Assembly: GCF_003334385.1 (NCBI RefSeq)
Contig: NZ_QOWN01000010.1
DNA: 64,000 nucleotides
From: Escherichia coli
GTDB lineage: Bacteria > Pseudomonadota > Gammaproteobacteria > Enterobacterales > Enterobacteriaceae
Direction: 5' to 3' (one strand)
Of the stretch, positions 1 through 30,768 are shown piece after piece. The position numbers and the translations under genes were made by a program. The notes under the pieces were generated by a model. That model saw only the letters and a list, made by a program, of their open reading frames with translations, did no database searches and was not told where the DNA came from. How positions within the stretch are numbered: the first letter of the stretch is position 1; every line of letters starts with the position of its first letter.

Positions 1-3000
1 CCATTACTGATTACCACTCGCTGATGTTCGATCTGGGCATCATCGCGCGTCGTCTGCGCTCCGCATCTGACCGTAGCAAATTCTATCGTCTGATCGAAGC
101 TTCGCTGTATGGCGGGATCTCCAGTGCCATTACCCGTTCTCTGCGCGACTACCTGTTGCCAGAAAACAGCGGCGTGCGTAAAGCGTTCCAGGACATGGAA
201 GCGGCGCTGCGTGAAAACCGTATGACGCTGGAAGCGATTCGTGTCACCCAGTCGGACCGCGACCTGTTTAAGCATCTGATCAGCGAAGCCACCAACTACG
301 TGGCGGCGGACTACATGCGTCACGCCAACGAGCGCCGTGTCCATCTCGACAAAGCCCTGGAGTTTCGTCGCGAGCTACATACTTCGCGTCAGCAACTGGC
401 GGCTGAGCAGTACAAACACGTCGATATGGCGCGTGAGCTGGCAGAGCACAACGGTGCCGAAGGCGATCTGGAAGCGGATTATCAGGCGGCCAGTGATCAC
501 CTGAACCTGGTGCAAACCGCACTGCGTCAGCAGGAGAAGATCGAACGCTACGAAGCGGATCTCGATGAGCTGCAGATCCGTCTGGAAGAGCAAAATGAAG
601 TGGTGGCAGAAGCCATCGAACGCCAGGAAGAGAATGAGGCTCGTGCGGAAGCTGCCGAACTGGAAGTGGACGAGCTGAAAAGCCAGCTTGCTGACTACCA
701 GCAGGCGCTGGACGTCCAGCAAACGCGCGCGATCCAGTATAACCAGGCGATTGCTGCGCTTAATCGTGCCAAAGAACTGTGCCATCTGCCGGACTTAACC
801 GCCGACTGCGCCGCCGAATGGCTGGAAACCTTCCAGGCGAAAGAGCTGGAAGCGACTGAAAAAATGCTCTCTCTTGAGCAGAAAATGAGCATGGCGCAAA
901 CCGCGCACAGCCAGTTTGAGCAGGCTTATCAGCTGGTGGTGGCAATCAACGGCCCACTGGCGCGTAACGAGGCGTGGGATGTCGCTCGCGAACTATTGCG
1001 CGAAGGGGTCGATCAGCGTCACCTGGCAGAGCAGGTTCAGCCGCTGCGGATGCGATTAAGCGAACTGGAACAGCGTCTACGCGAGCAGCAAGAAGCTGAG
1101 CGTCTGCTGGCAGATTTCTGCAAACGTCAGGGCAAGAATTTTGATATCGACGAACTGGAAGCCCTGCATCAGGAACTGGAAGCACGCATTGCCTCTCTTT
1201 CCGATAGCGTGTCTAACGCCCGTGAAGAGCGCATGGCACTGCGCCAGGAGCAGGAACAGCTGCAGTCTCGCATTCAGAGTTTGATGCAGCGTGCGCCGGT
1301 TTGGCTGGCAGCGCAAAACAGTCTCAACCAGTTGAGCGAACAGTGCGGCGAAGAGTTTACCTCCAGCCAGGACGTCACCGAATATCTGCAACAGTTGCTG
1401 GAGCGTGAGCGAGAGGCGATTGTTGAACGCGATGAAGTGGGCGCGCGCAAAAACGCCGTCGATGAAGAGATCGAACGTTTAAGCCAGCCTGGCGGCTCTG
1501 AAGATCAGCGTCTGAACGCGCTGGCGGAGCGTTTTGGTGGTGTGCTGCTGTCAGAAATTTATGACGACGTTAGCCTGGAAGATGCGCCGTACTTCTCAGC
1601 GCTGTATGGCCCGTCACGCCACGCCATCGTGGTGCCAGATCTGTCACAGGTAACTGAACACCTGGAAGGCTTGACCGATTGCCCGGAAGATCTCTATCTG
1701 ATCGAAGGAGATCCGCAGTCATTCGATGACAGCGTGTTCAGCGTTGATGAGCTGGAAAAAGCGGTAGTGGTGAAAATCGCCGATCGTCAGTGGCGTTATT
1801 CACGTTTCCCGGAAGTGCCGCTGTTTGGTCGTGCTGCGCGTGAAAGCCGTATTGAAAGCCTCCATGCCGAGCGTGAAGTGCTTTCCGAACGCTTCGCCAC
1901 GCTCTCCTTTGATGTACAGAAAACTCAGCGTCTGCATCAGGCGTTCAGCCGCTTTATCGGCAGTCATCTGGCGGTTGCGTTTGAGTCTGACCCGGAAGCA
2001 GAAATCCGTCAACTGAACAGCCGTCGCGTCGAACTGGAGCGGGCGTTAAGTAATCATGAAAATGATAACCAGCAGCAGCGTATTCAGTTTGAGCAGGCGA
2101 AAGAGGGCGTTACGGCGCTGAACCGCATTCTGCCGCGTCTCAACCTGTTGGCTGATGACAGCCTGGCGGATCGCGTCGATGAAATCCGCGAACGTCTGGA
2201 TGAAGCCCAGGAAGCCGCGCGTTTTGTTCAGCAGTTTGGCAATCAACTGGCGAAACTGGAACCGATTGTTTCGGTATTGCAGAGCGACCCGGAACAGTTC
2301 GAACAGTTAAAAGAAGATTACGCGTACTCTCAGCAGATGCAGCGCGATGCCCGTCAGCAGGCGTTTGCCCTGACGGAAGTGGTGCAGCGTCGTGCGCACT
2401 TTAGCTATTCTGACTCGGCAGAAATGCTTAGCGGTAACAGCGATCTCAACGAAAAACTGCGTGAACGTCTGGAACAGGCGGAAGCGGAGCGTACCCGTGC
2501 TCGCGAAGCGTTGCGCGGTCACGCAGCGCAGTTGAGTCAGTACAACCAGGTGCTGGCTTCGCTGAAAAGTTCTTACGACACCAAAAAAGAGCTACTCAAC
2601 GATCTGCAACGTGAATTGCAGGATATCGGCGTGCGTGCTGATAGCGGGGCAGAAGAGCGGGCGCGTATTCGCCGTGACGAGCTGCATGCGCAACTGAGCA
2701 ATAACCGTTCACGCCGCAATCAACTGGAAAAAGCGCTTACCTTCTGCGAAGCGGAGATGGACAACCTGACCCGCAAACTGCGCAAGCTGGAGCGGGATTA
2801 CTTTGAGATGCGCGAGCAGGTAGTGACCGCCAAAGCGGGCTGGTGTGCGGTGATGCGCATGGTGAAAGATAACGGCGTTGAGCGCCGCTTACACCGTCGT
2901 GAGCTGGCTTATCTCTCCGCTGATGATTTGCGTTCCATGTCGGATAAGGCGTTAGGTGCGCTGCGTCTGGCGGTGGCGGATAACGAACATCTGCGCGACG

Positions 3001-3953
3001 TGCTGCGCATGTCGGAAGATCCGAAACGTCCGGAGCGTAAAATTCAGTTCTTCGTGGCGGTTTATCAGCATCTGCGTGAACGTATTCGTCAGGATATTAT
3101 TCGTACCGATGATCCGGTGGAAGCTATCGAACAGATGGAGATTGAACTTAGCCGTCTGACCGAAGAATTAACCTCCCGTGAACAGAAACTGGCGATCAGT
3201 TCCCGCAGCGTGGCGAACATCATTCGCAAAACCATTCAGCGCGAGCAGAACCGTATCCGTATGCTCAACCAGGGGTTGCAGAACGTATCGTTTGGTCAGG
3301 TGAACAGCGTGCGTCTCAACGTGAACGTGCGTGAAACGCACGCCATGCTACTGGATGTGCTCTCTGAACAGCACGAGCAGCATCAGGATCTGTTTAACAG
3401 CAACCGTTTGACCTTCTCGGAAGCGCTGGCGAAACTGTATCAACGTCTTAACCCGCAGATTGATATGGGGCAGCGCACGCCGCAGACCATCGGTGAAGAA
3501 CTGCTGGATTACCGCAACTATCTGGAAATGGAAGTTGAGGTTAACCGTGGTTCCGATGGCTGGCTGCGCGCAGAGTCTGGTGCATTGTCGACCGGTGAGG
3601 CGATTGGTACCGGTATGTCGATTCTGGTGATGGTGGTACAAAGCTGGGAAGATGAATCTCGCCGCCTGCGCGGTAAAGATATCTCTCCTTGCCGCCTGCT
3701 GTTCCTCGATGAAGCAGCGCGACTGGATGCTCGTTCTATCGCCACGCTGTTTGAATTGTGTGAGCGTTTGCAAATGCAACTCATCATCGCAGCGCCGGAA
3801 AATATCAGCCCGGAGAAAGGCACCACCTATAAACTGGTGCGTAAAGTCTTCCAGAATACCGAACACGTTCATGTCGTCGGCCTGCGAGGATTTGCGCCGC
3901 AACTCCCTGAAACGCTTCCAGGAACTGACGAAGCGCCTTCTCAGGCGAGTTAA
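1..3953 (+). CDS. mukB: Chromosome partition protein MukB (SMC-like condensin), C-terminal ~1309 codons; 5' end outside window
   Basis: ORF 24..3953 is in an open frame back to the window edge; long coiled-coil sequence ending in a head-domain segment; stop TAA at 3951-3953. Confidence 0.93.
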
Positions 3954-3957
3954 AATT

Positions 3958-3988
3958 AAGGCGGCAGCAATGCCGCCTTTTCTTTTTC
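3958..3988 (+). terminator. Rho-independent terminator after mukB
   Basis: GC stem GGCGGCA/TGCCGCC (3960-3977) followed by a T-rich run TTTTCTTTTTC. Confidence 0.6.
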
Positions 3989-4213
3989 CGAAAACTCCGT
4001 TTCTGCACTAAAAAAGTGGCACATTACGGCGCGCTTTTCTTTAAACTTCTTTACATTAGGTTATGTAAAAACGTATCGGCGTTTATATACTGAAGATAAG
4101 CCTGATGAGTAACAGGCTTGCTCGTCATACTTTCGTGAGTATTGGCGTTGTACAGGCAAGTCGTAAAATAACAGCCTGGCTATTCAGAGTATGATAAAAA
4201 CAGGGGGCAAGGG

Positions 4214-6061
4214 ATGTTGCTTAATATGATGTGTGGTCGTCGGCTGTCGGCAATCAGTTTGTGCCTGGCCGTAACATTCGCTCCACTGTTCAATGCGCAG
4301 GCCGATGAGCCTGAAGTAATCCCTGGCGACAGCCCGGTGGCTGTCAGTGAACAGGGCGAGGCACTGCCGCAGGCGCAAGCCACGGCAATAATGGCGGGGA
4401 TCCAGCCATTGCCTGAAGGTGCGGCAGAAAAAGCCCGCACGCAAATCGAATCTCAATTACCCGCAGGTTACAAGCCGGTTTATCTTAACCAGCTTCAACT
4501 GTTGTATGCCGCACGCGATATGCAACCCATGTGGGAAAACCGTGATGCTGTTAAAGCCTTCCAGCAACAGCTGGCAGAGGTGGCGATTGCCGGTTTCCAG
4601 CCGCAGTTTAATAAATGGGTAGAGTTACTGACCGATCCTGGTGTTAACGGGATGGCACGCGACGTGGTGCTCTCTGATGCGATGATGGGCTATCTCCATT
4701 TCATTGCAAATATTCCGGTCAAAGGCACTCGCTGGCTATATAGCAGTAAACCTTATGCACTTGCAACGCCGCCGCTCTCGGTGATTAACCAATGGCAGCT
4801 GGCGCTGGATAAAGGTCAATTGCCTACGTTTGTTGCAGGACTGGCACCGCAGCATCCGCAATATGCGGCGATGCATGAATCGTTACTGGCCTTACTCTGT
4901 GACACCAAACCGTGGCCCCAACTGACCGGCAAAGCAACGTTGCGCCCAGGGCAGTGGAGTAACGACGTACCGGCGTTGCGCGAAATATTGCAACGCACAG
5001 GCATGTTGGACGGGGGGCCGAAAATTACTCTACCTGGCGATGACACGCCAACTGACGCGGTAGTCAGCCCATCCGCTGTTACTGTTGAAACAGCAGAAAC
5101 TAAGCCGATGGATAAGCAAACGACGTCTCGTAGTAAACCTGCGCCTGCCGTTCGCGCCGCCTACGATAATGAACTGGTGGAAGCCGTTAAACGTTTTCAG
5201 GCATGGCAAGGATTGGGGGCAGATGGTGCTATTGGCCCGGCAACACGTGACTGGTTAAACGTAACGCCCGCCCAGCGTGCTGGCGTGTTGGCTCTCAACA
5301 TCCAGCGATTGCGCTTGCTGCCAACAGAGCTTTCTACCGGGATCATGGTTAACATTCCGGCCTATTCGCTGGTCTACTATCAGAACGGCAATCAGGTGCT
5401 GGATTCGCGAGTCATTGTCGGTCGCCCCGATCGCAAAACGCCGATGATGAGCAGTGCCCTTAACAACGTAGTGGTAAACCCGCCGTGGAACGTACCTCCA
5501 ACTCTGGCACGCAAAGATATTCTGCCAAAAGTGCGCAACGATCCGGGATATCTCGAAAGCCATGGCTATACGGTGATGCGCGGCTGGAACAGCAGAGAAG
5601 CGATTGACCCATGGCAGGTTGACTGGTCTACAATCACGGCCTCGAATTTACCGTTCCGCTTCCAGCAGGCTCCAGGCCCACGGAACTCGCTGGGGCGCTA
5701 TAAATTCAATATGCCGAGTTCAGAGGCCATTTATTTGCATGACACGCCGAACCACAATCTGTTCAAGCGTGATACACGCGCATTGAGCTCAGGCTGTGTA
5801 CGAGTGAATAAAGCTTCCGATCTGGCGAATATGCTGTTGCAGGATGCAGGCTGGAATGACAAACGTATTTCTGATGCGCTGAAGCAGGGTGATACACGTT
5901 ACGTCAATATTCGGCAGTCGATTCCGGTGAATCTCTACTACCTGACGGCCTTTGTTGGTGCAGATGGTCGTACCCAGTATCGTACAGATATTTACAATTA
6001 TGATCTGCCTGCGCGATCCAGCTCGCAAATCGTATCGAAAGCGGAACAATTAATCAGGTAA
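4214..6061 (+). CDS. ldtD: L,D-transpeptidase LdtD (YcbB), 615 aa
   Basis: ORF 615 aa matches the recalled length; N-terminal signal peptide; YkuD-type catalytic region near the C-terminus (HDTPNHNLF...SSGCVRV). Confidence 0.93.
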
Positions 6062-17999: not shown

Positions 18000-18009
18000 T
18001 ATTTCTTCC

Positions 18010-19155
18010 TTAGCTTTGCGCGACTTTACGGGGGATAAAATCATTCGCCACCGCTTCGCCTTGCGGATTCAGCGGCTGCGGCTGGGGAATTTCCGGGATG
18101 GCGACATCCAGAAGCGGGAACAGCAACTCGCCAACCCGATACGCTTCTTCCAGATGCGGATAGCCCGAAAGCACAAAACTGTCGATGCCAAGCGCGGCAT
18201 ATTCGTTGATTCGCGCAGCGACCGTAGGACCATCGCCCACCAGCGCCGTCCCGGCACCGCCGCGCACTAAGCCAACGCCCGCCCATAAATTGGGGCTGAT
18301 CTCCAGATTGTCGCGCTTGCCGTTATGTAACGCCGCCATTCGCTGTTGCCCTACGGAATCCGTCCGGGCGAATGCGGCCTGTGCTTTGGCGATAGTTTCA
18401 TCATCAAGATGCGAGATTAACCGCTCGGCGGCCTGCCACGCTTCGTCGTTAGTTTCACGAACAATCACATGCAGACGAATACCGAAACGAATTTTGCGTC
18501 CATGCGCGGCAGCTTTCGCCCGCACTTGTTCGATTTTCTCTTTAACCAGTTCCGGCGGTTCGCCCCAGGTGAGGTAGAGATCAACCTGTTCTGCCGCCAG
18601 CTCCTGGGCGACATCTGACGATCCGCCAAAGTAAAGTGGCGGATACGGCTGTTGAATCGCCGGGAAGAGCAGTTTTGCTCCGCGCACATGAATATGTTTA
18701 CCGTTGAAATCGACGGTTTCTCTCTGCAATAAACGCCGCCAGACCTGGGTAAATTCCGCCGAGGCTTCGTAGCGCTCGCTATGATCAAGGAACACTCCGT
18801 CGCCTGCCAGCTCTTGTGGATCGCTGCCTGTGACCAGGTTAAACAACGCACGTCCATTTGAGAGACGGTCAAGCGTGGCGGCCTGGCGGGCGGCAACGGT
18901 AGGTGAGGTTACGCTGGGACGCAGGGCGACAAGAAACTTCAGCCGCTGCGTCACCGGGATCATCGATGCGGCAACCAGCCACGCATCTTCGCAGGAGCGC
19001 CCCGTTGGAATTAGCACACCGGTATAGCCAAGACGATCCGCCGCTTGCGCAATTTGTTGCAGATAACCGTGATCAACCGGGCGTGAACCTTCTTCCGTTC
19101 CCAGATAATGCCCGTCACCGTGGGTCGGTAAAAACCAGAACATATTCAGACTCAT
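18010..19155 (-). CDS. ssuD: FMNH2-dependent alkanesulfonate monooxygenase SsuD, 381 aa
   Basis: ORF 381 aa beginning [19 protein letters not shown]. Confidence 0.96.
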
Positions 19156-20111
19156 AATTGTTTTCCTTCCAGTTGAGTGGGCTGCCAGATGCGCTGGCGA
19201 ATATCGACTTTTTTCGGCACCAGACGATTTTCATAAAACAGATCTGCCGTTTGCTGCTGTAAGGCGGCAACCTCGGCGTTAACCGGTTTGATGGTGGTAG
19301 GAGGGCGATGATCTAAGTAAGAGGCAATCACCGGTGCCGGTAAGCCCATCGTTTTTGCCAGTAAAGCGATGCTTTGCTCGCGCTGGCTGCGGGTTAACGC
19401 ATCGGCCTCACTAAAGGTTGCCAGTACGCCCTGAATAAAAGCGCCGTTTTTTTCTGCATAGGGACGAGCTGCCAGATAAAACGATCCAGTTTGATTGAGA
19501 TCGGTGCCGTCTTTCAGCACCCGCACGCCGCCCTGTAATAATGCAGCAGAGTAGTAGGGATCCCAGATAGCCTAGGCGTCAACGTTACCTTGCTGGAACG
19601 CGGCGCGGGCATCAGCGGGCGTCAGGTAAGTGGGTTGGATATCGGTAAACTTAAGTCCGGCCTGACGCAGTGCACGCAGTAAAAGGTTGTGTGAACTGGA
19701 ACCTTTCTGAAAGGCAACTTTGTGACCTTTAAGATCGGCTACGGTTTTGATCGGGCTGTTTTCTGCCACCAGAATCACTTCGGCTTTGGGCTTCGGTGGC
19801 TCGACGCCCACGTACACCAAATCAGCCCCGGCAGCCTGGGCAAAGATTGGCGGAATATCCCCGGTACTGCCGAGATCAATACTGCCAACGTTTAACGCTT
19901 CCAACATTTGCGGACCCGCGGGGAACTCCACCCAGGAGATTTTTGATTCCGGATAGCGTTTTTCCAGTAACTGGTGGCTTTTTGCCAGCACCATACCAAT
20001 ACTGCCTTTCTGATAGCCTATACGTAACGCTTCAGGCGAGGATTCTGCAGCAACCGCAAAAGTAGAGACGCTAAGCAATCCCGCCAGCGCCAGTTTAATG
20101 ATGTTACGCAT
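19152..20111 (-). pseudogene. ssuA: ssuA (sulfonate-binding periplasmic protein) interrupted by an in-frame TAG at 19572-19574
   Basis: ORFs 19572..20153 and 19152..19526 share one frame; reading reads ...QQGNVDA * AIWDPYYSAALLQGGVRVLKDG..., where I recall Trp in the intact protein; the span is 320 codons, as expected for 319 aa. Confidence 0.8.
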
Positions 20112-20679
20112 GGGCATTACCTCGCAGAGACAGAAGGTCAGGAACCTGAACATCGCGGCGGTGCAATGCCTGCCAGAAAGTTTCTAGCGCGGTATCAAGA
20201 CGGGTTTGCAGATTTGGCGTGAACTGGGGTCTGTGATGGTAATCAATTACTTGTGAGTCATCGGCAAACACGCCGTGCAGGATCTCCTGAGCTTTCAGTG
20301 CGCTTAAAACTGGTTTAAGGGCATAATCGACCGCCAGCAGATGGGCCACGGTACCGCCCGTCGCCAGCGGTAGCACCACTTTGCCTTGCAAAGCGCGTTC
20401 TGGCAGCAGGTCGAGCAGGGTTTTCAACGCACCGGAATAGGCGGCTTTATACACAGGCGTGGCGACAATCAGCCCATCGGCCTGTTGCAGCTGTTCGGTG
20501 AAGGTCTTGAGTGCCGGACTATCGAAACGAGCATAAAGTAGATCTTCCGGGGCGAAGTTTTGCAGATTCCAGTGATAAACCTCTACATCCAGGCCATTTA
20601 GTTTTTCCCGCGCATATTCCAGCAAGGAGCTGGAGCGAGAAGGAAAGCGAGGACTACCCGCCAGGGTGATGACACGCAT
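20104..20679 (-). CDS. ssuE: NADPH-dependent FMN reductase SsuE, 191 aa
   Basis: ORF 191 aa beginning MRVITLAGSPRFPSRS; 8-nt overlap with the ssuA start. Confidence 0.95.
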   Translation of the reverse strand: MRVITLAGSPRFPSRSSSLLEYAREKLNGLDVEVYHWNLQNFAPEDLLYARFDSPALKTFTEQLQQADGLIVATPVYKAAYSGALKTLLDLLPERALQGKVVLPLATGGTVAHLLAVDYALKPVLSALKAQEILHGVFADDSQVIDYHHRPQFTPNLQTRLDTALETFWQALHRRDVQVPDLLSLRGNAHA

Positions 20680-21035
20680 ACTCTCTCCTTATAACCAATT
20701 GTTCTTTTTTTTGTTAACATTGATAACAATTCGGTCAGTCTGTCGGAGAGACAAGAAAATTCCAAATATAAATTTTGTGTATCTTTTTCTGAAAATAAAC
20801 TAAAGAAAGGGCTTTATATATCACGCATATTTATTTATTGGATAGTCATTAGATGTTGAATCAATGAATTACTCGTTCAGTTAATATTTAAATATTCATG
20901 AAATCTATAAATTAAAGATTTGTCACTTATTGGATTTAGTATGCTTGATTTAAATGGCGGACAATTATTGTTATTATTAAGTCTAATGTCATTTAAAGGC
21001 ATTATCATATTTACGAAGAGATCAGGATGATAACG
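20680..21035. promoter_or_regulatory. AT-rich divergent control region between ssuE and elfA
   Basis: About 350 bp of strongly AT-rich DNA with A/T tracts, between the ssuE start and the elfA start. Confidence 0.5.
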
Positions 21036-21575
21036 ATGAAAAAAAGTGTATTGACGGCGTTTATAACTGTGGTATGTGCAACGTCCAGCGTTATGGCTGC
21101 TGATGATAATGCTATCACGGATGGCTCAGTAACATTTAATGGTAAAGTTATTGCTCCAGCTTGTACCCTGGTAGCTGCGACGAAAGATTCCGTGGTGACT
21201 TTGCCAGATGTTAGTGCCACGAAGTTGCAAACCAATGGTCAGGTTTCTGGCGTGCAAATTGATGTGCCAATTGAATTAAAAGATTGTGATACTACCGTAA
21301 CAAAAAATGCAACGTTCACCTTTAATGGCACTGCGGATACTACTCAGATTACAGCGTTTGCTAACCAGGCCTCATCTGATGCTGCTACAAACGTGGCCCT
21401 GCAAATGTATATGAATGATGGTACAACGGCCATCACGCCAGACACAGAAACCGGGAACATTTTGTTGCAGGATGGAGATCAGACGTTGACTTTTAAAGTT
21501 GATTATATCGCTACGGGGAAAGCGACTTCAGGTAATGTGAATGCGGTAACAAATTTCCATATTAACTATTATTAA
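21036..21575 (+). CDS. elfA: Fimbrial major subunit ElfA (YcbQ), 179 aa
   Basis: ORF 21027..21575; start chosen at MKKSVLTAFITVV with AGGA 8 nt upstream; signal peptide and the fimbrial-subunit Cys pair. Confidence 0.9.
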   Translation: MKKSVLTAFITVVCATSSVMAADDNAITDGSVTFNGKVIAPACTLVAATKDSVVTLPDVSATKLQTNGQVSGVQIDVPIELKDCDTTVTKNATFTFNGTADTTQITAFANQASSDAATNVALQMYMNDGTTAITPDTETGNILLQDGDQTLTFKVDYIATGKATSGNVNAVTNFHINYY

Positions 21576-21606
21576 TAGAACTCATTAATTGTTTTATTAA
21601 TTAGTA

Positions 21607-21643
21607 CCCCTCCAGTGTTCTGGAGGGGATATTCATATTTTTT
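21607..21643 (+). terminator. Intra-operon hairpin (partial terminator/attenuator) between elfA and elfD
   Basis: Stem CCCCTCCAG/CTGGAGGGG with loop TGTT, followed by ATATTCATATTTTTT. Confidence 0.5.
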
Positions 21644-21657
21644 AAGAGTGACTATTT

Positions 21658-22359
21658 ATGAAAACTTGCATAACAAAGGGAATTGTGACCGTAAGTTTAA
21701 CGGCAATATTACTCAGCTGCTCATCCGCATGGGCGGCAGGTAAAGGCGGGATTGGACTTGCAGCAACACGTCTTGTTTATTCAGAAGGTGAAGAGCAAAT
21801 TTCACTGGGTGTACGTAACACCAGTCTGGATGTTCCTTATCTTATTCAGTCATGGGTGATGACCCCAGATAATAAAAAATCAGCAGACTTTATTATTACA
21901 CCACCGCTATTTGTGCTGAATCCGGCAAATGAGAATCTGTTACGCATTATGTACATTGGAGCGCCGTTGGCGAAAGACAGAGAAACCCTTTTCTTCACTA
22001 GCGTACGGGCAGTCCCTTCAACAACGAAGCGGAAAGAGGGAAATACCCTGAAGATTGCCACACAAAGCGTCATCAAACTTTTCTGGCGACCAAAAGGTTT
22101 AGCGTATCCCTTAGGCGAGGCTCCGGCGAAACTGCGTTGCACTTCGTCAGCTGACATGGTTACGGTCAGTAACCCAACACCTTATTTCATTACCCTGACA
22201 GACCTGAAAATAGGTGGAAAAGTAGTTAAAAATCAAATGATTTCCCCCTTTGATAAATACCAATTTTCTCTGCCAAAGGGGGCCAAAAATAGCAGCGTAA
22301 CGTATCGAACCATCAATGACTACGGGGCGGAAACGCCGCAACTCAACTGTAAATCGTAA
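21658..22359 (+). CDS. elfD: Periplasmic fimbrial chaperone ElfD (YcbR), 233 aa
   Basis: ORF 233 aa; PapD-like chaperone sequence. Confidence 0.93.
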   Translation: MKTCITKGIVTVSLTAILLSCSSAWAAGKGGIGLAATRLVYSEGEEQISLGVRNTSLDVPYLIQSWVMTPDNKKSADFIITPPLFVLNPANENLLRIMYIGAPLAKDRETLFFTSVRAVPSTTKRKEGNTLKIATQSVIKLFWRPKGLAYPLGEAPAKLRCTSSADMVTVSNPTPYFITLTDLKIGGKVVKNQMISPFDKYQFSLPKGAKNSSVTYRTINDYGAETPQLNCKS

Positions 22360-22383
22360 GCCGTCTTCAGTTAAGAGAGCGAG

Positions 22384-26045
<3,662 letters not shown>

Positions 26046-26056
26046 CGCGTGAACGT

Positions 26057-26599
26057 ATGAAGAAAAAAACGATATTTCAGTGCGTTATCTTGTTCTTTAG
26101 CATTCTTAACATCCATGTCGGGATGGCTGGGCCTGAACAAGTTAGTATGCATATTTATGGGAATGTGGTCGATCAGGGCTGTGATGTCGCCACCAAAAGT
26201 GCATTACAAAATATTCATATTGGTGATTTTAATATCAGTGATTTTCAGGCCGCGAATACCGTAAGCACTGCTGCTGATTTGAATATCGATATCACCGGTT
26301 GTGCCGCTGGTATTACTGGCGCGGACGTCCTTTTTAGCGGCGAGGCTGACACCCTTGCGCCGACACTGCTCAAACTAACTGACACAGGCGGAAGCGGTGG
26401 TATGGCAACGGGGATTGCCGTGCAAATTCTTGATGCGCAAAGTCAGCAAGAAATCCCGCTCAATCAGGTCCAGCCTCTTACGCCCTTAAAAGCCGGGGAT
26501 AACACACTCAAATATCAACTTCGTTATAAGTCCACAAAGGCGGGAGCAACGGGCGGTAATGCGACGGCGGTTCTCTATTTTGATCTGGTTTACCAGTGA
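26057..26599 (+). CDS. ycbU: Fimbrial-like protein YcbU, 180 aa
   Basis: ORF 180 aa; signal peptide and pilin-type C-terminus. Confidence 0.9.
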   Translation: MKKKTIFQCVILFFSILNIHVGMAGPEQVSMHIYGNVVDQGCDVATKSALQNIHIGDFNISDFQAANTVSTAADLNIDITGCAAGITGADVLFSGEADTLAPTLLKLTDTGGSGGMATGIAVQILDAQSQQEIPLNQVQPLTPLKAGDNTLKYQLRYKSTKAGATGGNATAVLYFDLVYQ

Positions 26600-26606
26600 A
26601 GGAGTG

Positions 26607-27122
26607 ATGTTGAAACGGATAATCTGGATTCTGTTCTTATTGGGATTAACGTGGGGCTGTGAGCTATTTGCCCATGATGGCACGGTCAACATTAGCGGAT
26701 CGTTTCGCCGTAATACATGCGTGCTGGCACAGGATAGCAAGCAAATCAATGTGCAGTTAGGCGATGTCTCGCTGACACGTTTTTCTCATGGGAATTATGG
26801 CCCGGAGAAATCTTTCATCATTAATTTGCAGGATTGCGGAACAGATGTCAGCACGGTTGACGTCACCTTTTCAGGAACCCCCGACGGAGTGCAGAGCGAA
26901 ATGTTGTCCATTGAAAGTGGTACGGATGCAGCCAGCGGGCTGGCAATTGCGATTCTGGATGATGCGAAGATATTGATTCCGCTTAACCAGGCGAGTAAAG
27001 ACTACAGCCTACATAGCGGTAAGGTGCCATTAACTTTTTATGCGCAATTGCGACCTGTCAATAGCGATGTGCAGTCGGGTAAAGTGAATGCCAGCGCGAC
27101 ATTTGTACTTCATTATGACTAA
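26607..27122 (+). CDS. ycbV: Fimbrial-like protein YcbV, 171 aa
   Basis: ORF 26559..27122; start chosen at MLKRIIWILFLLGL (signal peptide). Confidence 0.85.
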   Translation: MLKRIIWILFLLGLTWGCELFAHDGTVNISGSFRRNTCVLAQDSKQINVQLGDVSLTRFSHGNYGPEKSFIINLQDCGTDVSTVDVTFSGTPDGVQSEMLSIESGTDAASGLAIAILDDAKILIPLNQASKDYSLHSGKVPLTFYAQLRPVNSDVQSGKVNASATFVLHYD

Positions 27123-27825
27123 TACGTGGAACAGATTGGCGCTCTTGATTTTCGCCGTTTTATCGCTGCTGGTGGCGGGTGAATTGCAGGCAGGAGTGGT
27201 GGTCGGCGGAACGCGATTTATCTTTCCGGCAGACAGAGAATCGATATCTATTTTACTGACTAATACCAGTCAGGAATCCTGGCTTATTAACAGTAAAATC
27301 AACCGCCCAACGCGTTGGGCCGGGGGGGAAGCGTCGACAGTGCCAGCACCATTACTGGCCGCTCCGCCACTTATTCTCCTGAAGCCCGGTACGACAGGCA
27401 CGTTGCGCTTGCTGAGAACGGAAAGCGACATCTTGCCTGTGGATCGCGAAACGCTATTTGAGTTAAGCATTGCCAGCGTGCCATCCGGCAAAGTTGAAAA
27501 TCAGAGCGTAAAAGTGGCGATGCGCTCGGTATTTAAACTGTTCTGGCGACCCGAAGGTTTGCCGGGCGACCCGCTGGAAGCTTATCAACAATTACGCTGG
27601 ACACGGAATTCGCAGGGTGTACAACTCACTAACCCAACGCCTTATTACATTAACCTGATTCAGGTGAGTGTAAATGGTAAAGCGTTAAGTAATGTGGGAG
27701 TTGTGCCGCCTAAAAGCCAGCGTCAGACAAGCTGGTGTCAGGCAATCGCACCGTGTCATGTCGCCTGGCGGGCGATAAATAATTACGGCGGGTTGAGTGC
27801 AAAGAAGGAGCAAAATCTGCCCTGA
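27115..27825 (+). CDS. ycbF: Fimbrial chaperone-like protein YcbF, 236 aa
   Basis: ORF 27088..27825; start chosen at MTNTWNRLALLIF; PapD-like chaperone sequence. Confidence 0.85.
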   Translation: MTNTWNRLALLIFAVLSLLVAGELQAGVVVGGTRFIFPADRESISILLTNTSQESWLINSKINRPTRWAGGEASTVPAPLLAAPPLILLKPGTTGTLRLLRTESDILPVDRETLFELSIASVPSGKVENQSVKVAMRSVFKLFWRPEGLPGDPLEAYQQLRWTRNSQGVQLTNPTPYYINLIQVSVNGKALSNVGVVPPKSQRQTSWCQAIAPCHVAWRAINNYGGLSAKKEQNLP

Positions 27826-27834
27826 AACAGGTTC

Positions 27835-27849
27835 GGAAAACGTTTGCGT
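27835..27849 (+). promoter_or_regulatory. PurR-like operator (pur box) upstream of pyrD
   Basis: GGAAAACGTTTGCGT matches 13 of 16 positions of the palindromic pur box ACGCAAACGTTTGCGT; about 90 bp upstream of the pyrD ATG. Confidence 0.5.
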
Positions 27850-27935
27850 TTTTTTTGCCGCAGGTCAATTCCCTTTTGGTCCGAACTCGCACATAATACG
27901 CCCCCGGTTTGCACACCGGGAATCCAGGAGAGTTC

Positions 27936-28946
27936 ATGTACTACCCCTTCGTTCGTAAAGCCCTTTTCCAGCTCGATCCAGAGCGCGCTCATGAGTTTAC
28001 TTTTCAGCAATTACGCCGTATTACAGGAACGCCGTTTGAAGCACTGGTGCGGCAGAAAGTGCCTGCGAAACCTGTTAACTGCATGGGCCTGACGTTTAAA
28101 AATCCGCTTGGTCTGGCAGCCGGTCTTGATAAAGACGGGGAGTGCATTGACGCGTTAGGCGCGATGGGATTTGGATCGATCGAGATCGGTACCGTCACGC
28201 CACGTCCACAGCCAGGTAATGACAAGCCGCGTCTCTTTCGTCTGGTAGATGCCGAAGGTTTGATCAACCGTATGGGCTTTAATAATCTTGGCGTTGATAA
28301 CCTCGTAGAGAACGTAAAAAAGGCCCATTATGACGGCGTCCTGGGTATTAACATCGGCAAAAATAAAGATACGCCAGTGGAGCAGGGCAAAGATGACTAT
28401 CTGATTTGTATGGAAAAAATCTATGCCTATGCGGGATATATCGCCATCAATATTTCATCGCCGAATACCCCAGGATTACGCACGCTGCAATATGGTGAAG
28501 CGCTGGATGATCTCTTAACCGCGATTAAAAATAAGCAAAATGATTTGCAAGCGATGCACCATAAATATGTGCCGATCGCAGTGAAGATCGCGCCGGATCT
28601 TTCTGAAGAAGAATTGATCCAGGTTGCCGATAGTTTAGTTCGCCATAATATTGATGGCGTTATTGCAACCAATACCACACTCGATCGTTCTCTTGTTCAG
28701 GGAATGAAAAATTGCGATCAAACCGGTGGCTTAAGTGGTCGTCCGCTTCAGTTAAAAAGCACCGAAATTATTCGCCGCTTGTCACTGGAATTAAACGGTC
28801 GCTTACCGATCATCGGTGTTGGCGGCATCGACTCGGTTATCGCTGCGCGTGAAAAGATTGCTGCGGGTGCCTCACTGGTGCAAATTTATTCTGGTTTTAT
28901 TTTTAAAGGTCCGCCGCTGATTAAAGAAATCGTTACCCATATCTAA
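27936..28946 (+). CDS. pyrD: Dihydroorotate dehydrogenase (quinone) PyrD, 336 aa
   Basis: ORF 27909..28946; start chosen at [16 protein letters not shown] (ATG at 27936). Confidence 0.96.
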
Positions 28947-28978
28947 TTATTTCTTCGAATTCCTCTTTATAAGATAAT

Positions 28979-29012
28979 CAGGGCTTTATTTTCAGCCCTG
29001 GTTGTTTTATAT
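28979..29012 (+). terminator. Rho-independent terminator after pyrD
   Basis: Stem CAGGGCT/AGCCCTG followed by GTTGTTTTATATT. Confidence 0.55.
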
Positions 29013-29119
29013 TCATCGCTGTTGCTTATTTAGACATTTTGTACTTTTATTGTTGAGGTTATTAAGCGAAGCGACAATGGATTGTGTTGCTGCGGTTTTA
29101 TAGGGTAGGGGAGAGGCAG

Positions 29120-29662
29120 ATGCGAATTAAACCAGACGATAACTGGCGTTGGTATTACGATGAAGAGCACGATCGAATGATGCTCGATTTAGCCAATGGT
29201 ATGCTATTTCGCTCACGTTTTGCGCGCAAGATGTTGACTCCAGATGCCTTTTCTCCCGCAGGCTTTTGCGTTGACGACGCCGCGCTCTATTTCTCTTTTG
29301 AAGAAAAGTGCCGCGATTTTAATTTATCTAAAGAACAAAAAGCCGAACTGGTGCTGAATGCACTGGTAGCAATTCGCTATCTCAAACCGCAAATGCCGAA
29401 AAGCTGGCATTTTGTTTCCCATGGTGAAATGTGGGTGCCCATGCCGGGCGATGCGGCCTGCGTTTGGTTGAGCGATACTCACGAGCAGGTCAATTTGCTG
29501 GTCGTTGAATCTGGCGAAAATGCCGCACTATGCCTGCTGGCACAACCCTGCGTTGTTATTGCGGGTCGCGCGATGCAGTTGGGCGACGCCATTAAAATCA
29601 TGAACGACAGGCTGAAACCGCAGGTTAATGTTGACAGCTTCAGCCTCGAACAGGCAGTCTAA
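29120..29662 (+). CDS. zapC: Cell division protein ZapC (YcbW), 180 aa
   Basis: ORF 29084..29662; start chosen at [24 protein letters not shown]. Confidence 0.92.
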
Positions 29663-30768
29663 CGCGCCAACTTAAGTGCAGTCTTCGGTACACAGCTACA
29701 GCAAAGAATGGTGCCATCATCGCCCATTGCTGATTTTTTCAGCGGCGTGACTTCGCCTTCTAAAAGCTGAACACGGCAACTTCCACAAATGCCCGCGCGG
29801 CAAGAATAAGGGATACGAATTCCCTGATTTTCTAATTGCTCCAGCAACACCTGTTGGTTATTTCCACGAAATGCCTGTCCCTGCCAGTCAATATCTACAT
29901 TTGCGTCCGGTTGTTGCGTGATGTTGGCGGTATCATCAGCGGCAGCTGCGCCGTAAATTTTTGCCGGAGCCGTTGCCAGAATTTCCACCTCATCGCCAAC
30001 GCGAATCACGCCGCTATTACGGGCAATTAAATTCTGACCAAAATCGACATCGCCGTTATCCTGGGCAGTGCGGAAAGATTGCAATGTTTTTAATGGTTCG
30101 CCTGCCGGATGTTTTTGCCCTTTTTCTGGGCTGACGGTGGTGAAAATACAGCGGCTACAAGGTTTAACCACATCAAACACCACATCACCAATGCGAATCA
30201 CTTTCCAGCGATCTTCTTCCCAGGCTGACGCGCCGGAAACCACCAGATTGGGGCGGAATTGCTCCATTTTTACACTGGCCGGACAACGTTGTTGGAGATC
30301 ACGTAACGAGGCTTCGTTAGCAAGAAGGTAAGGATAGCCATCAGCAAATGACAGAGGTACAGTGTTGTGGCGTTTCACGCGCCGGGTCATTTGTGGCCCC
30401 ACCCAGCGTAATTGCACTTCGCGGGAGAAAAATCCACTTAGCCATTTGTTGATCGCGTCTGGCGCAATTCGCGCGGTAAAATGTGTGCCCCAAACTTCGG
30501 TTGGTGCGTCTTGTGTGGCGAAATCAGCAAAACGAACATATGCGCTACTGCCATCTGGTGCGGTGAGATGCAAGCCATCATGCACAGGTGAAGGAGTAAA
30601 CCGTACCATCTGGGGAAACTGGCGAGCGGTAATAAACGTACCGTCAGGTTCCGTGATCATAAAGATGCGATCGAAGGCCAGACCACTGACATCTGCCAGA
30701 GCATGTGTAAGACCAATGCCGCGCATCGATTTAACAGGATGAATAAAAAGCCGGATTAATGTCGCCAC
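29659..30768 (-). CDS. ycbX: MOSC-domain protein with C-terminal 2Fe-2S ferredoxin domain, YcbX, 369 aa
   Basis: ORF 369 aa; C-terminal cysteine cluster CRAGICGSC. Confidence 0.93.

What the first reader, a model, noticed from the sequence alone, without database searches (positions are those of the whole stretch)
21576..21657. Stable hairpin with a U-run between the major pilin gene elfA and the chaperone gene elfD
A 9-bp GC-rich stem (CCCCTCCAG/CTGGAGGGG) followed by a T-rich run sits 30 nt after the elfA stop and 15 nt before the elfD start. This is the classic arrangement for a partial terminator or mRNA stabiliser that makes the major subunit transcript more abundant than the downstream assembly genes.
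Basis: seen in the sequence. Interest (0 to 1): 0.25.

Follow-up and report, generated by a model that had tools for sequence, protein, structure and literature searches.

The report
Conserved RNA hairpin after pilin gene elfA
A stable, evolutionarily conserved RNA hairpin sits between the E. coli pilin gene elfA and its chaperone gene elfD, and it is an ordinary example of the hairpins that most fimbrial operons carry there, probably so that more pilin message than assembly-gene message is present.

Summary
The window is E. coli K-12, and a perfect 9-bp stem (21607-21615 / 21620-21628, loop TGTT, -17.9 kcal/mol) lies in the 82-nt elfA-elfD spacer. It folds better than all 200 shuffles, occurs once per genome, and is unannotated.

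One correction applies. The T6 run (21638-21643) starts 9 nt after the stem, so a consensus terminator scan does not call the site.

Comparative data show that the hairpin is the selected feature, not the U-run.
- Every orthologous or related pilin-chaperone spacer fetched carries a hairpin.
- Six of nine stem pairs show two-sided compensatory changes.
- All five wobble pairs work only in the sense RNA.
- Most relatives have no U-run.

At least seven of nine K-12 chaperone-usher operons have a comparable hairpin after their first pilin gene. In fim this spacer yields the known sRNA FimR2.

The most likely function is a 3' boundary and exonuclease barrier for an elfA-only message, possibly with leaky termination in Escherichia. 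This raises pilin mRNA over chaperone and usher mRNA.

No transcript data exist for this silent operon, so function is inferred. The finding is a new member of a well-known kind and of low interest.

The parts
21036..21575 (+). elfA (ycbQ, b0938), the major fimbrial subunit gene. Its stop codon TAA is at 21573-21575.
   Evidence: RefSeq annotation of identical K-12 sequence; ORF list.
21584..21605 (+). Weak A/U-only hairpin (AUUAAUUG / UAAUUAGU, 6-nt loop) just 5' of the GC hairpin. The whole 31-nt stretch 21576-21606 is 84% A+U.
   Evidence: Minimum-free-energy fold of the spacer. A comparable A/U hairpin is predicted in L017, and similar sequence is present in L005. Its function is unknown.
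21607..21628 (+). Core hairpin: 9-bp perfect stem CCCCUCCAG/CUGGAGGGG (7 G-C pairs) with loop UGUU, -17.9 kcal/mol. In MG1655 coordinates this is 998439-998460.
   Evidence: Conserved with compensatory and wobble changes in orthologues.
21629..21643 (+). A/U-rich tail AUAUUCAUAUUUUUU. The U6 run at 21638-21643 starts 9 nt after the stem. It could serve as a weak, displaced U-tract or as a single-stranded entry site for RNase E.
   Evidence: Sequence. Not called by the terminator scan. The tail is kept in Escherichia only and is absent in Pseudocitrobacter and in the Logan loci L017, L019 and L028.
21644..21648 (+). AAGAG, a Shine-Dalgarno-like site for elfD, 9 nt before the ATG. The hairpin does not cover it.
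   Evidence: Read from the sequence; left unpaired in the hairpin fold.
21658..22359 (+). elfD (ycbR, b0939), the periplasmic chaperone gene and the first of the downstream assembly genes elfD-elfC-elfG-ycbUVF.
   Evidence: Homologues carry PapD_N and PapD_C domains.

Best explanation
The element is a hairpin in the sense-strand elf mRNA. It defines and protects the 3' end of an elfA-only message.

Proposed steps:
1. Transcription from the elfA promoter runs through the spacer.
2. The polycistronic RNA is cut in the A/U-rich single-stranded stretch downstream of the hairpin, most likely by RNase E.
3. 3'-to-5' exonucleases remove the remainder but stall at the base of the GC stem.
4. elfA mRNA therefore outlives the elfDCG-ycbUVF part, and pilin is made in excess over chaperone and usher.

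In Escherichia the displaced U-run may add some leaky termination at the same place.

Shown here: the structure, its conservation, its strand, and the generality of the arrangement. Inferred: cleavage, exonuclease blockage, and the effect on mRNA ratios.
For: 1. The hairpin is stable and non-random.

2. It is single-copy and present in 3994 of 5426 complete E. coli genomes.

3. A hairpin is present in all 13 orthologous or related pilin-chaperone spacers examined. All 13 have z below 0 against shuffles, and 8 have z of -2.9 or lower. This holds although loops, flanks and spacer lengths are otherwise unalignable.

4. In the alignable CCCC...GGGG group (K-12, four E. coli variants, Escherichia sp. 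E1V33, Logan loci at 85% and 77% ElfD identity, Pseudocitrobacter faecalis, Citrobacter freundii), pairs 1, 5, 6, 7, 8 and 9 change on both sides and stay paired. This is my manual alignment of the sequences.

5. All 5 wobble pairs have U in the 5' arm and G in the 3' arm, so they pair only in the sense RNA. The sense fold is at least as stable as the antisense fold in 8 of 9 cases.

6. The most frequent E. coli variant, found in 1491 genomes, is a C-to-U change that keeps a U-G pair.

7. The U-run is not conserved outside Escherichia. The shared function therefore does not need a canonical terminator.

8. Both flanks are about 83-84% A+U, the composition RNase E prefers according to PMC4423207.

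9. The arrangement is general. Hairpins follow yraH, yadN, yfcV, ybgD, ygiL and sfmA in K-12.

10. Precedents: 3' protective hairpins (malE-malF) and an RNase-resistant 3' structure on papA mRNA are described in PMC5927463. Differential decay of the pap and CFA/I fimbrial operons is listed in PMC4423207.
Against: - There are no transcript data for this operon. No elfA or elfD 3' end appears in the supplementary tables held for Adams et al. 2021.
- Sequence conservation cannot separate an exonuclease barrier from weak termination or from other RNA roles.
- If a weak 4-bp A-U/G-U extension with one bulge is counted, the U-run begins 4 nt after the extended stem. A real termination component in Escherichia therefore cannot be excluded.
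- The O157:H7 lineage (310 genomes) has lost the loop-closing pair, although 8 bp and -15.6 kcal/mol remain.
- One K-12 operon (yehD-yehC) has no such hairpin, so the feature is not obligatory for fimbrial operons.
Confidence: 0.55

Rival explanations
1. The hairpin is mainly a leaky Rho-independent terminator. A fraction of RNA polymerases stop at the hairpin plus U-run, giving a short elfA transcript, and the rest read through into elfDCG-ycbUVF.
For: - The stem is GC-rich and a U6 run lies downstream.
- With the weak lower-stem extension, the U-run starts 4 nt after the structure.
- The tail AUAUUCA(U/C)AUUUUU is kept across E. coli and Escherichia sp. E1V33.
- The paralogous operons yraH, ybgD and yadN carry terminator-like hairpins with adjacent U-runs at the same position.
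- A PdhR target table lists elfDCG-ycbUVF as a unit separate from elfA.
Against: - Only 4 of the first 8 tail bases are U, the first base is A, and the consensus scan does not call the site.
- A d'Aubenton-Carafa-type score is negative. I recalled the formula from memory, so it is rough.
- Orthologues that keep the hairpin mostly lack any U-run: P. faecalis, Logan 85%, Logan 52%, K. aerogenes.
- From memory (Korea et al. 2010, not checked here), a constitutive promoter placed upstream of ycbQ gives functional fimbriae, so read-through must be substantial.
Confidence: 0.2
2. The hairpin serves the downstream genes. After cleavage upstream of it, it becomes a 5'-terminal stem-loop that protects elfDCG mRNA from 5'-end-dependent RNase E attack, or it positions processing relative to the elfD ribosome-binding site.
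For: - The 3' base of the hairpin lies 25-30 nt before the chaperone start codon in all alignable orthologues. Its distance from the pilin stop varies from 5 to 187 nt (the true start in L017 is).
- In L017 a roughly 150-nt insertion landed upstream of the hairpins and left the hairpin-to-elfD unit intact.
- 5' protective hairpins of the papA type are documented in PMC5927463.
Against: - A spacing of 25-30 nt is about the minimum that keeps a stable stem out of the ribosome-binding region. Simple compaction can therefore explain the constant spacing (inference).
- In the K-12 paralogues the hairpin-to-start distance, read from the folds, is not constant.
- The general logic of fimbrial operons is to boost the pilin, not the chaperone.
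Confidence: 0.08
3. The spacer is cut out as a small regulatory RNA stabilised by the hairpin, as FimR2 is cut from the fimA-fimI spacer.
For: - The MG1655 annotation places the sRNA gene fimR2 (b4838) in the fimA-fimI spacer.
- PMC9723502 shows that FimR2 is processed by RNase E from the fim transcript and needs its stem-loop for stability.
- The elf hairpin has A/U-rich flanks suited to RNase E.
Against: - I saw no sequence resemblance to FimR2 on comparing the sequences; no formal alignment was run.
- No Rfam family matches.
- Only the stem is conserved. The loop and the single-stranded flanks, which would carry a seed region, are not conserved between genera.
- The operon is normally silent, so an sRNA would rarely be made.
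Confidence: 0.05
4. The element is a DNA-level palindrome, such as a protein-binding or recombination site, or a chance inverted repeat with no function.
For: - It is a perfect 9-bp inverted repeat.
- IS1 has inserted next to it in some strains.
- elfA alleles are mosaic, with a breakpoint about 90 nt before the stop.
Against: - Loop length varies from 4 to 11 nt between orthologues, which does not fit a dimeric binding site.
- The arm sequences change while complementarity is kept.
- The wobble pairs fit RNA of the sense strand only.
- Chance is excluded by the shuffles.
- It is not a repeated element, with a median of 1 copy per genome.
Confidence: 0.03

Closest known systems
3' hairpin of papA mRNA and differential decay of the pap operon (Baga et al. 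1988; Nilsson and Uhlin 1991; as described in PMC5927463 and PMC4423207)
   Same: - A stem-loop lies directly after the major pilin gene of a chaperone-usher operon.
- The proposed outcome is the same: pilin mRNA more abundant and more stable than the mRNA of the neighbouring genes.
- RNase E processing is combined with an RNase-resistant 3' structure.
   Different: - There is no sequence homology.
- In pap the demonstrated cleavage lies upstream of papA (papB-papA) and the 3' structure is described as a terminator. Here nothing has been measured and the U-tract is displaced.
- elf has no papB-like upstream cistron.
Intercistronic protective hairpins of the malE-malF type and the protective 3' structures catalogued in E. 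coli operons (PMC5927463)
   Same: - A stable structure sits at the boundary between a gene needed in high amounts and lower-demand downstream genes.
- The model is endonuclease cleavage followed by a block to 3' exonucleases.
- The structures are evolutionarily conserved.
   Different: - The malE-malF element is a REP repeat present in many copies, whereas the elf hairpin is single-copy.
- Most structures in that survey lie inside the downstream coding sequence, whereas this one is intergenic.
- elfA and ycbQ do not occur in the main text of that paper; its supplementary tables were not searched.
Rho-independent (intrinsic) terminators, including attenuating ones inside operons
   Same: A GC-rich stem-loop of typical size and stability, with a run of U downstream.
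   Different: - The U-run starts 9 nt after the GC stem.
- The proximal tail is A-U-A-U-U-C-A-U.
- The consensus scan does not call it.
- The U-run is not conserved in orthologues.
FimR2, the sRNA derived from the fimA-fimI spacer (b4838; PMC9723502)
   Same: - It occupies the same kind of place, the spacer after the major pilin gene of a chaperone-usher operon.
- It contains a hairpin needed for RNA stability.
- It is released by RNase E.
   Different: - I saw no sequence similarity.
- The FimR2 hairpin is weaker (-7.7 to -9.2 kcal/mol) and has a GGA-containing loop that binds CsrA. The elf loop is UGUU.
- No small RNA from elf has been reported in what I could search.
Hairpins after the first pilin gene in other K-12 chaperone-usher operons (yraH, yadN, yfcV, ybgD, ygiL, sfmA)
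   Same: - Same position and the same general architecture.
- yfcV-yfcU (CCCCAUAGCG-ACAC-UGCUAUGGGG followed by UAUUUAAAU) is especially alike.
   Different: - These are independent sequences.
- Some are textbook terminators (yraH: 13-14 bp stem followed by UUUUCCUU), while others have no U-run (ygiL).
- yehD-yehC has none.

Membership tests
Rho-independent (intrinsic) terminator | GC-rich stem-loop of roughly 5-14 bp with a short loop | tested here: met
   9 bp, 7 G-C pairs, 4-nt loop, -17.9 kcal/mol.
Rho-independent (intrinsic) terminator | U-rich tract immediately (0-2 nt) after the stem | tested here: not met
   The tail is AUAUUCAUAUUUUUU, with 4 U in the first 8 bases and the U6 run starting 9 nt after the stem. 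The site is not listed by the consensus scan. It is met only if a weak bulged 4-bp A-U/G-U extension is counted.
Rho-independent (intrinsic) terminator | RNA 3' ends map to the U-tract in vivo or in vitro | not testable with these tools
   No elfA or elfD entry appears in the 3'-end tables of PMC7815308. The operon is silent under standard conditions.
Rho-independent (intrinsic) terminator | Hairpin plus U-tract kept together in orthologues | tested here: not met
   The hairpin is kept. The U-run is missing in P. faecalis and in loci L017, L019, L028 and L030, and is weak in L018 and L021.
Intercistronic mRNA-stabilising hairpin (selective RNA processing and stabilisation) | Stable stem-loop just 3' of the cistron that needs higher expression, inside a polycistronic unit | tested here: met
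   The hairpin lies between the major pilin gene and the chaperone gene. This is the only sizeable spacer in the elf operon, since the other junctions are 24 nt or less or overlap.
Intercistronic mRNA-stabilising hairpin (selective RNA processing and stabilisation) | Structure conserved at the RNA level on the sense strand, with covariation | tested here: met
   Six of 9 pairs show two-sided changes, and 5 sense-only wobble pairs are present. All 13 related spacers fold better than the mean of their shuffles. Caveat: the arm alignment was made by hand, because MAFFT and a narrow covariance model did not align the arms.
Intercistronic mRNA-stabilising hairpin (selective RNA processing and stabilisation) | Endonuclease cleavage near the hairpin and a longer half-life for the upstream segment | not testable with these tools
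   The only indication is composition: both flanks are 83-84% A+U.
REP / BIME repeated extragenic palindromes | Many copies per genome sharing a consensus | tested here: not met
   Median of 1 place per genome among 3994 genomes and one match in the window with up to 3 mismatches.
Known RNA families (Rfam 15) | Match at or above a family's gathering score | tested here: not met
   Only two chance-level matches on the opposite strand, with E-values of 2.9 and 8.7. There are no matches in six orthologous loci.
FimR2-like spacer-derived sRNA | Discrete small RNA released from the pilin-downstream spacer, with conserved single-stranded seed or protein-binding motifs | tested here: inconclusive
   The position is analogous. 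However, the loop and flanks are not conserved between genera, and the loop has no GGA. Accumulation of a small RNA cannot be tested here.

The most novel reading that the evidence does not exclude
The conserved hairpin may not only mark a passive 3' boundary. It may be the core of a processed RNA species with its own role. One possibility is a spacer-derived small RNA released by RNase E, as FimR2 is from the fimA-fimI spacer. Another is a 5'-terminal cap for the elfDCG message, as hinted by the constant 25-30 nt spacing to the chaperone start codon in all orthologues.
Probability: 0.07. Interest if true: 0.45.

Novelty: new member of a known kind. Interest (0 to 1): 0.15.

Why it matters
The finding adds one more conserved example to a rule known since the pap work of the 1980s. 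That rule says fimbrial operons set the pilin-to-assembly-protein ratio with an RNA structure placed right after the pilin gene.

The comparative result has modest practical use. The stem is selected and the U-run is not, which helps anyone who re-engineers or de-represses the cryptic elf (ycb) fimbriae or annotates operon structure. It argues against treating elfA and elfDCG-ycbUVF as independent transcription units on the basis of the hairpin alone. It does not open a new question.

Tried and rejected
- **Rfam searches.** The spacer and six orthologous loci gave nothing meaningful.
- **Consensus promoter and terminator scan.** It called no terminator at the site and no promoter in the spacer, so an internal elfD promoter is not supported.
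- **3'-end mapping literature.** The Adams et al. 2021 supplements have no entry for elfA, elfD, ycbQ or coordinates 99845x-99847x. The supplements of PMC9023263 are not held.
- **Expression papers.** Papers naming elfA, elfD and elfC gave no per-gene values usable for a polarity estimate.
- **MAFFT alignment of the hairpins.** It put gaps inside the 5' arm.
- **Covariance model.** A model built from five E. coli variants was too narrow to recover the distant hairpins cleanly, and its alignment was filled with chance hits. I therefore did not run the count of structure pairs and tabulated the pairs by hand.
- **Terminator discriminant.** I computed a d'Aubenton-Carafa-type score from a formula recalled from memory. 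Only yraH scored positive, so I treat it as rough.
- **Locus L020 (53% ElfD identity).** I tested whether it is the E. coli Auf operon. It has no match in E. coli genomes, so the Auf spacer remains unexamined.
- **Jordi et al. 1993 (CFA/I differential decay).** The paper is not held.
- **REP element, DNA-binding palindrome and antisense-strand terminator.** I considered all three and rejected them on copy number, variable loop length, the strand-specific wobble pairs, and the lack of a U-run or a convergent gene on the minus strand.

Full report
**What is there**

The window is E. coli K-12. The region is 100% identical to MG1655 derivatives, and RefSeq annotates elfA at window 21036-21575 and elfD at 21658-22359. 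Window position plus 976,832 gives the MG1655 coordinate.

The 82-nt spacer reads TAGAACTCATTAATTGTTTTATTAATTAGTA-CCCCTCCAG-TGTT-CTGGAGGGG-ATATTCATATTTTTTAAGAGTGACTATTT.
- The perfect 9-bp stem occupies 21607-21615 and 21620-21628.
- It starts 31 nt after the elfA stop codon and ends 29 nt before the elfD ATG.
- The T6 run is at 21638-21643 and ends 14 nt before the ATG.
- An AAGAG ribosome-binding site follows at 21644-21648.

One point matters, however. The T-run is separated from the stem by 9 nt (ATATTCATA), and only 4 of the first 8 tail bases are T.

**Is it more than chance**

- The core hairpin has -17.9 kcal/mol.
- The whole spacer folds at -25.3 kcal/mol with z = -4.1, and none of 200 dinucleotide shuffles is as stable.
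- The pattern, with up to three mismatches, occurs once in the 64-kb window and never in 100 shuffles.
- The 48-mer around it occurs once per genome (median 1, maximum 2) in 3994 of 5426 complete E. coli genomes. No annotated feature lies under it.

It is thus a real, single-copy, unannotated structure and not a REP-type repeat. Rfam has no family for it.

**Is it a terminator**

The consensus scan requires at least 5 T within 8 bases starting 0-2 nt after the stem. It lists 23 sites in 18000-30000 but not this one.

RNAfold can extend the stem by four weak A-U/G-U pairs with one bulge, giving -19.6 kcal/mol. This brings the U-run to 4 nt from the structure, so weak termination in Escherichia is conceivable. 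A discriminant score that I recalled from d'Aubenton Carafa et al. 1990 is negative for both versions of the stem and positive for the yraH hairpin. I treat this score as rough.

**Comparative evidence within E. coli**

I sampled five variants of the hairpin beyond the K-12 type:

| Variant | Change | Effect | Genomes |
|---|---|---|---|
| K-12 type | none | 9 bp intact | 1799 |
| 07-4299 type | C to T at pair 7 | U-G wobble | 1491 |
| MRY15-117 | C to T at pair 4 | U-G wobble | not counted |
| O157:H7 type | C to A at the loop-closing pair | 8 bp remain, -15.6 kcal/mol | 310 |
| AF34 type | changes in flanks only | stem unchanged | not counted |

**Comparative evidence outside E. coli**

I fetched orthologous and related loci through the ElfD protein. 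Every one has a hairpin in the pilin-chaperone spacer.

| Source (locus) | ElfD identity | Hairpin |
|---|---|---|
| Escherichia sp. E1V33 and a Logan contig (L005, L027) | 86% | CCCCAUC-11 nt-GAUGGGG |
| Logan contig (L017) | 85% | CCCCCUUU-loop-AAAGGGGG |
| Logan contig (L018) | 77% | CCCCUUCU-9 nt-GGAAGGGG |
| Pseudocitrobacter faecalis (L008, L009) | 66-67% | CCCCUUCA-9 nt-UGAAGGGG |
| Citrobacter freundii, syntenic next to ssuE (L021) | 52% | GCCCUUUUAU-9 nt-AUAGAAGGGC |
| L019, L020, L028, L029, L030, L007 | 47-68% | unrelated hairpins at the same place |

I counted pairs from the outermost C-G.
- Pairs 1, 5, 6, 7, 8 and 9 each show changes on both sides that keep the pair.
- There are five wobble pairs. 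All have U in the 5' arm and G in the 3' arm, so they would be A-C mismatches in an antisense RNA and carry no meaning in duplex DNA.
- The sense fold is at least as stable as the antisense fold in 8 of 9 sequences.
- Loop length ranges from 4 to 11 nt.
- All 13 spacers fold better than the mean of their dinucleotide shuffles, and 8 have z of -2.9 or lower.

The pair table is my own alignment of the arms. MAFFT misplaced gaps, and a covariance model built from the E. coli variants was too narrow.

**What is and is not conserved**

The stem is conserved. The U-run is not.
- It is present in E. coli and Escherichia sp. E1V33.
- It is absent after the hairpins of P. faecalis (GGAGAGCC...), L017 (GAGAUGGC...), L028 (CUGCCUGA...) and L030 (CAUUCCGG...).
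- It is weak in L018 and L021.

The 3' base of the hairpin lies 25-30 nt before the chaperone start codon in every alignable orthologue. For L017 the true start is the MKTCITKG methionine. The distance from the pilin stop varies from 5 to 187 nt.

**How general is the arrangement**

I read the spacer after the first pilin gene in nine K-12 chaperone-usher operons.

| Spacer | Hairpin | z against shuffles |
|---|---|---|
| yraH-yraI | textbook terminator, 13-14 bp then UUUUCCUU | -6.9 |
| yadN-yadV | hairpin plus UUUUAAUU | -3.1 |
| yfcV-yfcU | CCCCAUAGCG-ACAC-UGCUAUGGGG then UAUUUAAAU, much like elf | -2.9 |
| ybgD-ybgQ | GGCGGC-6 nt-GCCGCC then UUUCAU | -2.6 |
| ygiL-yqiG | GGCCGGG-UUCG-CCCGGCC, no U-run | -3.2 |
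| sfmA-sfmC | long hairpin | -2.7 |
| fimA-fimI | weak hairpin | -0.5 |
| yehD-yehC | none, spacer is 34 nt | not applicable |
| elfA-elfD | the hairpin studied here | -5.8 |

The fimA-fimI spacer is annotated in MG1655 as the sRNA gene fimR2. According to PMC9723502, FimR2 is cut out of the fim transcript by RNase E and needs its stem-loop for stability.

The literature I could read describes the same logic.
- PMC5927463 describes 3' protective hairpins (malE-malF), an RNase-resistant 3' structure on papA mRNA, and conservation of such structures among enterobacteria.
- PMC4423207 lists the pap and CFA/I fimbrial operons among cases of selective RNA processing and stabilisation. It also notes the preference of RNase E for A/U-rich single strands.

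**Best explanation**

The hairpin is an element of the sense elf mRNA that forms or protects the 3' end of an elfA-only message. Both flanks are 83-84% A+U.
1. The polycistronic RNA is cut in the A/U-rich stretch downstream of the hairpin.
2. 3' exonucleases are stopped at the GC stem.
3. Pilin mRNA therefore persists while the assembly-gene part decays.

In Escherichia the displaced U-run may add leaky termination. I put this at about 0.55.

The rivals are:
- a mainly terminating role, about 0.2;
- a role at the 5' end of the elfDCG message, suggested by the constant spacing, about 0.08;
- a FimR2-like small RNA, about 0.05;
- a DNA-level or chance palindrome, about 0.03.

Structure, conservation, strand and generality are shown. 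Cleavage, exonuclease blockage and the effect on mRNA ratios are inferred.

**No direct data exist**

The elf operon is cryptic. The 3'-end tables held for Adams et al. 2021 contain nothing for elfA, elfD or these coordinates. The papers that name the genes give no per-gene values. A PdhR target table lists 'elfDCG-ycbUVF' as a unit without elfA. This shows that databases split the operon at this spacer, but it is not experimental evidence.

**Comparison and novelty**

The element works like the pilin-downstream hairpins of pap, CFA/I and other fimbrial operons, and like the intercistronic protective hairpins of the malE-malF type.
- It fails one defining feature of a canonical intrinsic terminator, the adjacent U-tract.
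- It fails the copy-number test for REP elements.
- It matches no Rfam family.

It is a new, previously unannotated member of a well-known kind. Interest is low, at 0.15.

The only reading that would raise interest is a processed RNA with its own function, on the FimR2 precedent. The lack of conservation outside the stem argues against that.

Noticed in passing
L031 1175-1209 (NC_000913.3 4543674-4543708): The fimA-fimI spacer of K-12, which is the position analogous to the elf hairpin, is annotated as the small regulatory RNA gene fimR2 (b4838). PMC9723502 shows it is released by RNase E and binds CsrA.
   Followed up: partly
window 21584-21605: A second, A/U-only hairpin (AUUAAUUG/UAAUUAGU) lies directly 5' of the GC hairpin. 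A similar A/U hairpin is predicted in the 85% orthologue L017, and related sequence is present in Escherichia sp. E1V33. Its role is unknown.
   Followed up: partly
window 21607-21628 and orthologues (L005, L017, L018, L009, L021): The distance from the 3' base of the hairpin to the chaperone start codon is 25-30 nt in every alignable orthologue, while the distance from the pilin stop varies from 5 to 187 nt. In addition, the 5' arm is always pyrimidine-rich and the 3' arm purine-rich. In K-12 the arms contain CCUCC and GGAGG, which resemble the anti-Shine-Dalgarno and Shine-Dalgarno sequences, but no usable start codon lies nearby.
   Followed up: partly
L017 911-1090 (Logan SRR26188687 contig): A structured insertion of about 150 nt lies between the elfA stop and the two hairpins in an 85%-identity orthologue. 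It has partial matches of about 87% identity at one or two places in 704 E. coli genomes and, from memory, resembles an ERIC/IRU-type intergenic repeat. The gene caller also extended the chaperone by 9 codons, so that it starts 1 nt after the hairpin.
   Followed up: partly
L026 2546-3313 and L002 2626-3664: IS1 insertions disrupt the locus in some E. coli strains. In strain CT01, IS1 sits just 5' of the hairpin position and the elfD 5' end is lost. In O6:H16 strain 2011EL-1370-2, IS1 copies replace the elfA 3' end, the spacer and the elfD 5' end.
   Followed up: no
window about 21487 (query position 88): Many E. coli genomes carry a divergent elfA allele, annotated only as 'fimbrial protein' of 180 aa. 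Similarity to K-12 resumes about 90 nt before the elfA stop and continues through the spacer and elfD. This indicates mosaic or recombinant pilin alleles with a conserved 3' end.
   Followed up: no
E. coli genome collection: About 1430 of 5426 complete E. coli genomes have no match to the elfA-elfD region. Wurpel et al. 2013 (PMC3559732) report that Ycb (Elf) fimbriae occur in phylogroups A, B1, D and E, and the related, mutually exclusive Auf fimbriae in B2. The Auf pilin-chaperone spacer was not examined.
   Followed up: partly
L025 1525-1741: In O157:H7-type strain FORC_044 the usher gene elfC is annotated as a frameshifted pseudogene. The same lineage carries the hairpin variant that has lost its loop-closing pair.
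   Followed up: no
L006, L010, L011: Tiny contigs (241-766 bp) in assemblies labelled Colwellia sp. TT2012 and Amycolatopsis orientalis encode ElfD at 99% identity to E. coli. This is almost certainly E. coli contamination of those assemblies.
   Followed up: no
window 22520 approx. (MG1655 999352): A published genomic SELEX screen lists a 12/14 match to the PdhR box (AAaTGGTtacACCAtTT) inside elfC, close to the elfD-elfC junction, and names the target unit elfDCG-ycbUVF (PMC7660256).
   Followed up: no
window 3958, 9009, 10576, 10716, 16411, 39068, 41408, 42140, 49697, 51533, 54759: Eleven other perfect inverted repeats with a stem of at least 9 bp and a loop of 3-8 nt occur in the 64-kb window. 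By my arithmetic about 1.5 are expected by chance. They are probably terminators or REP-like elements of other genes.
   Followed up: no
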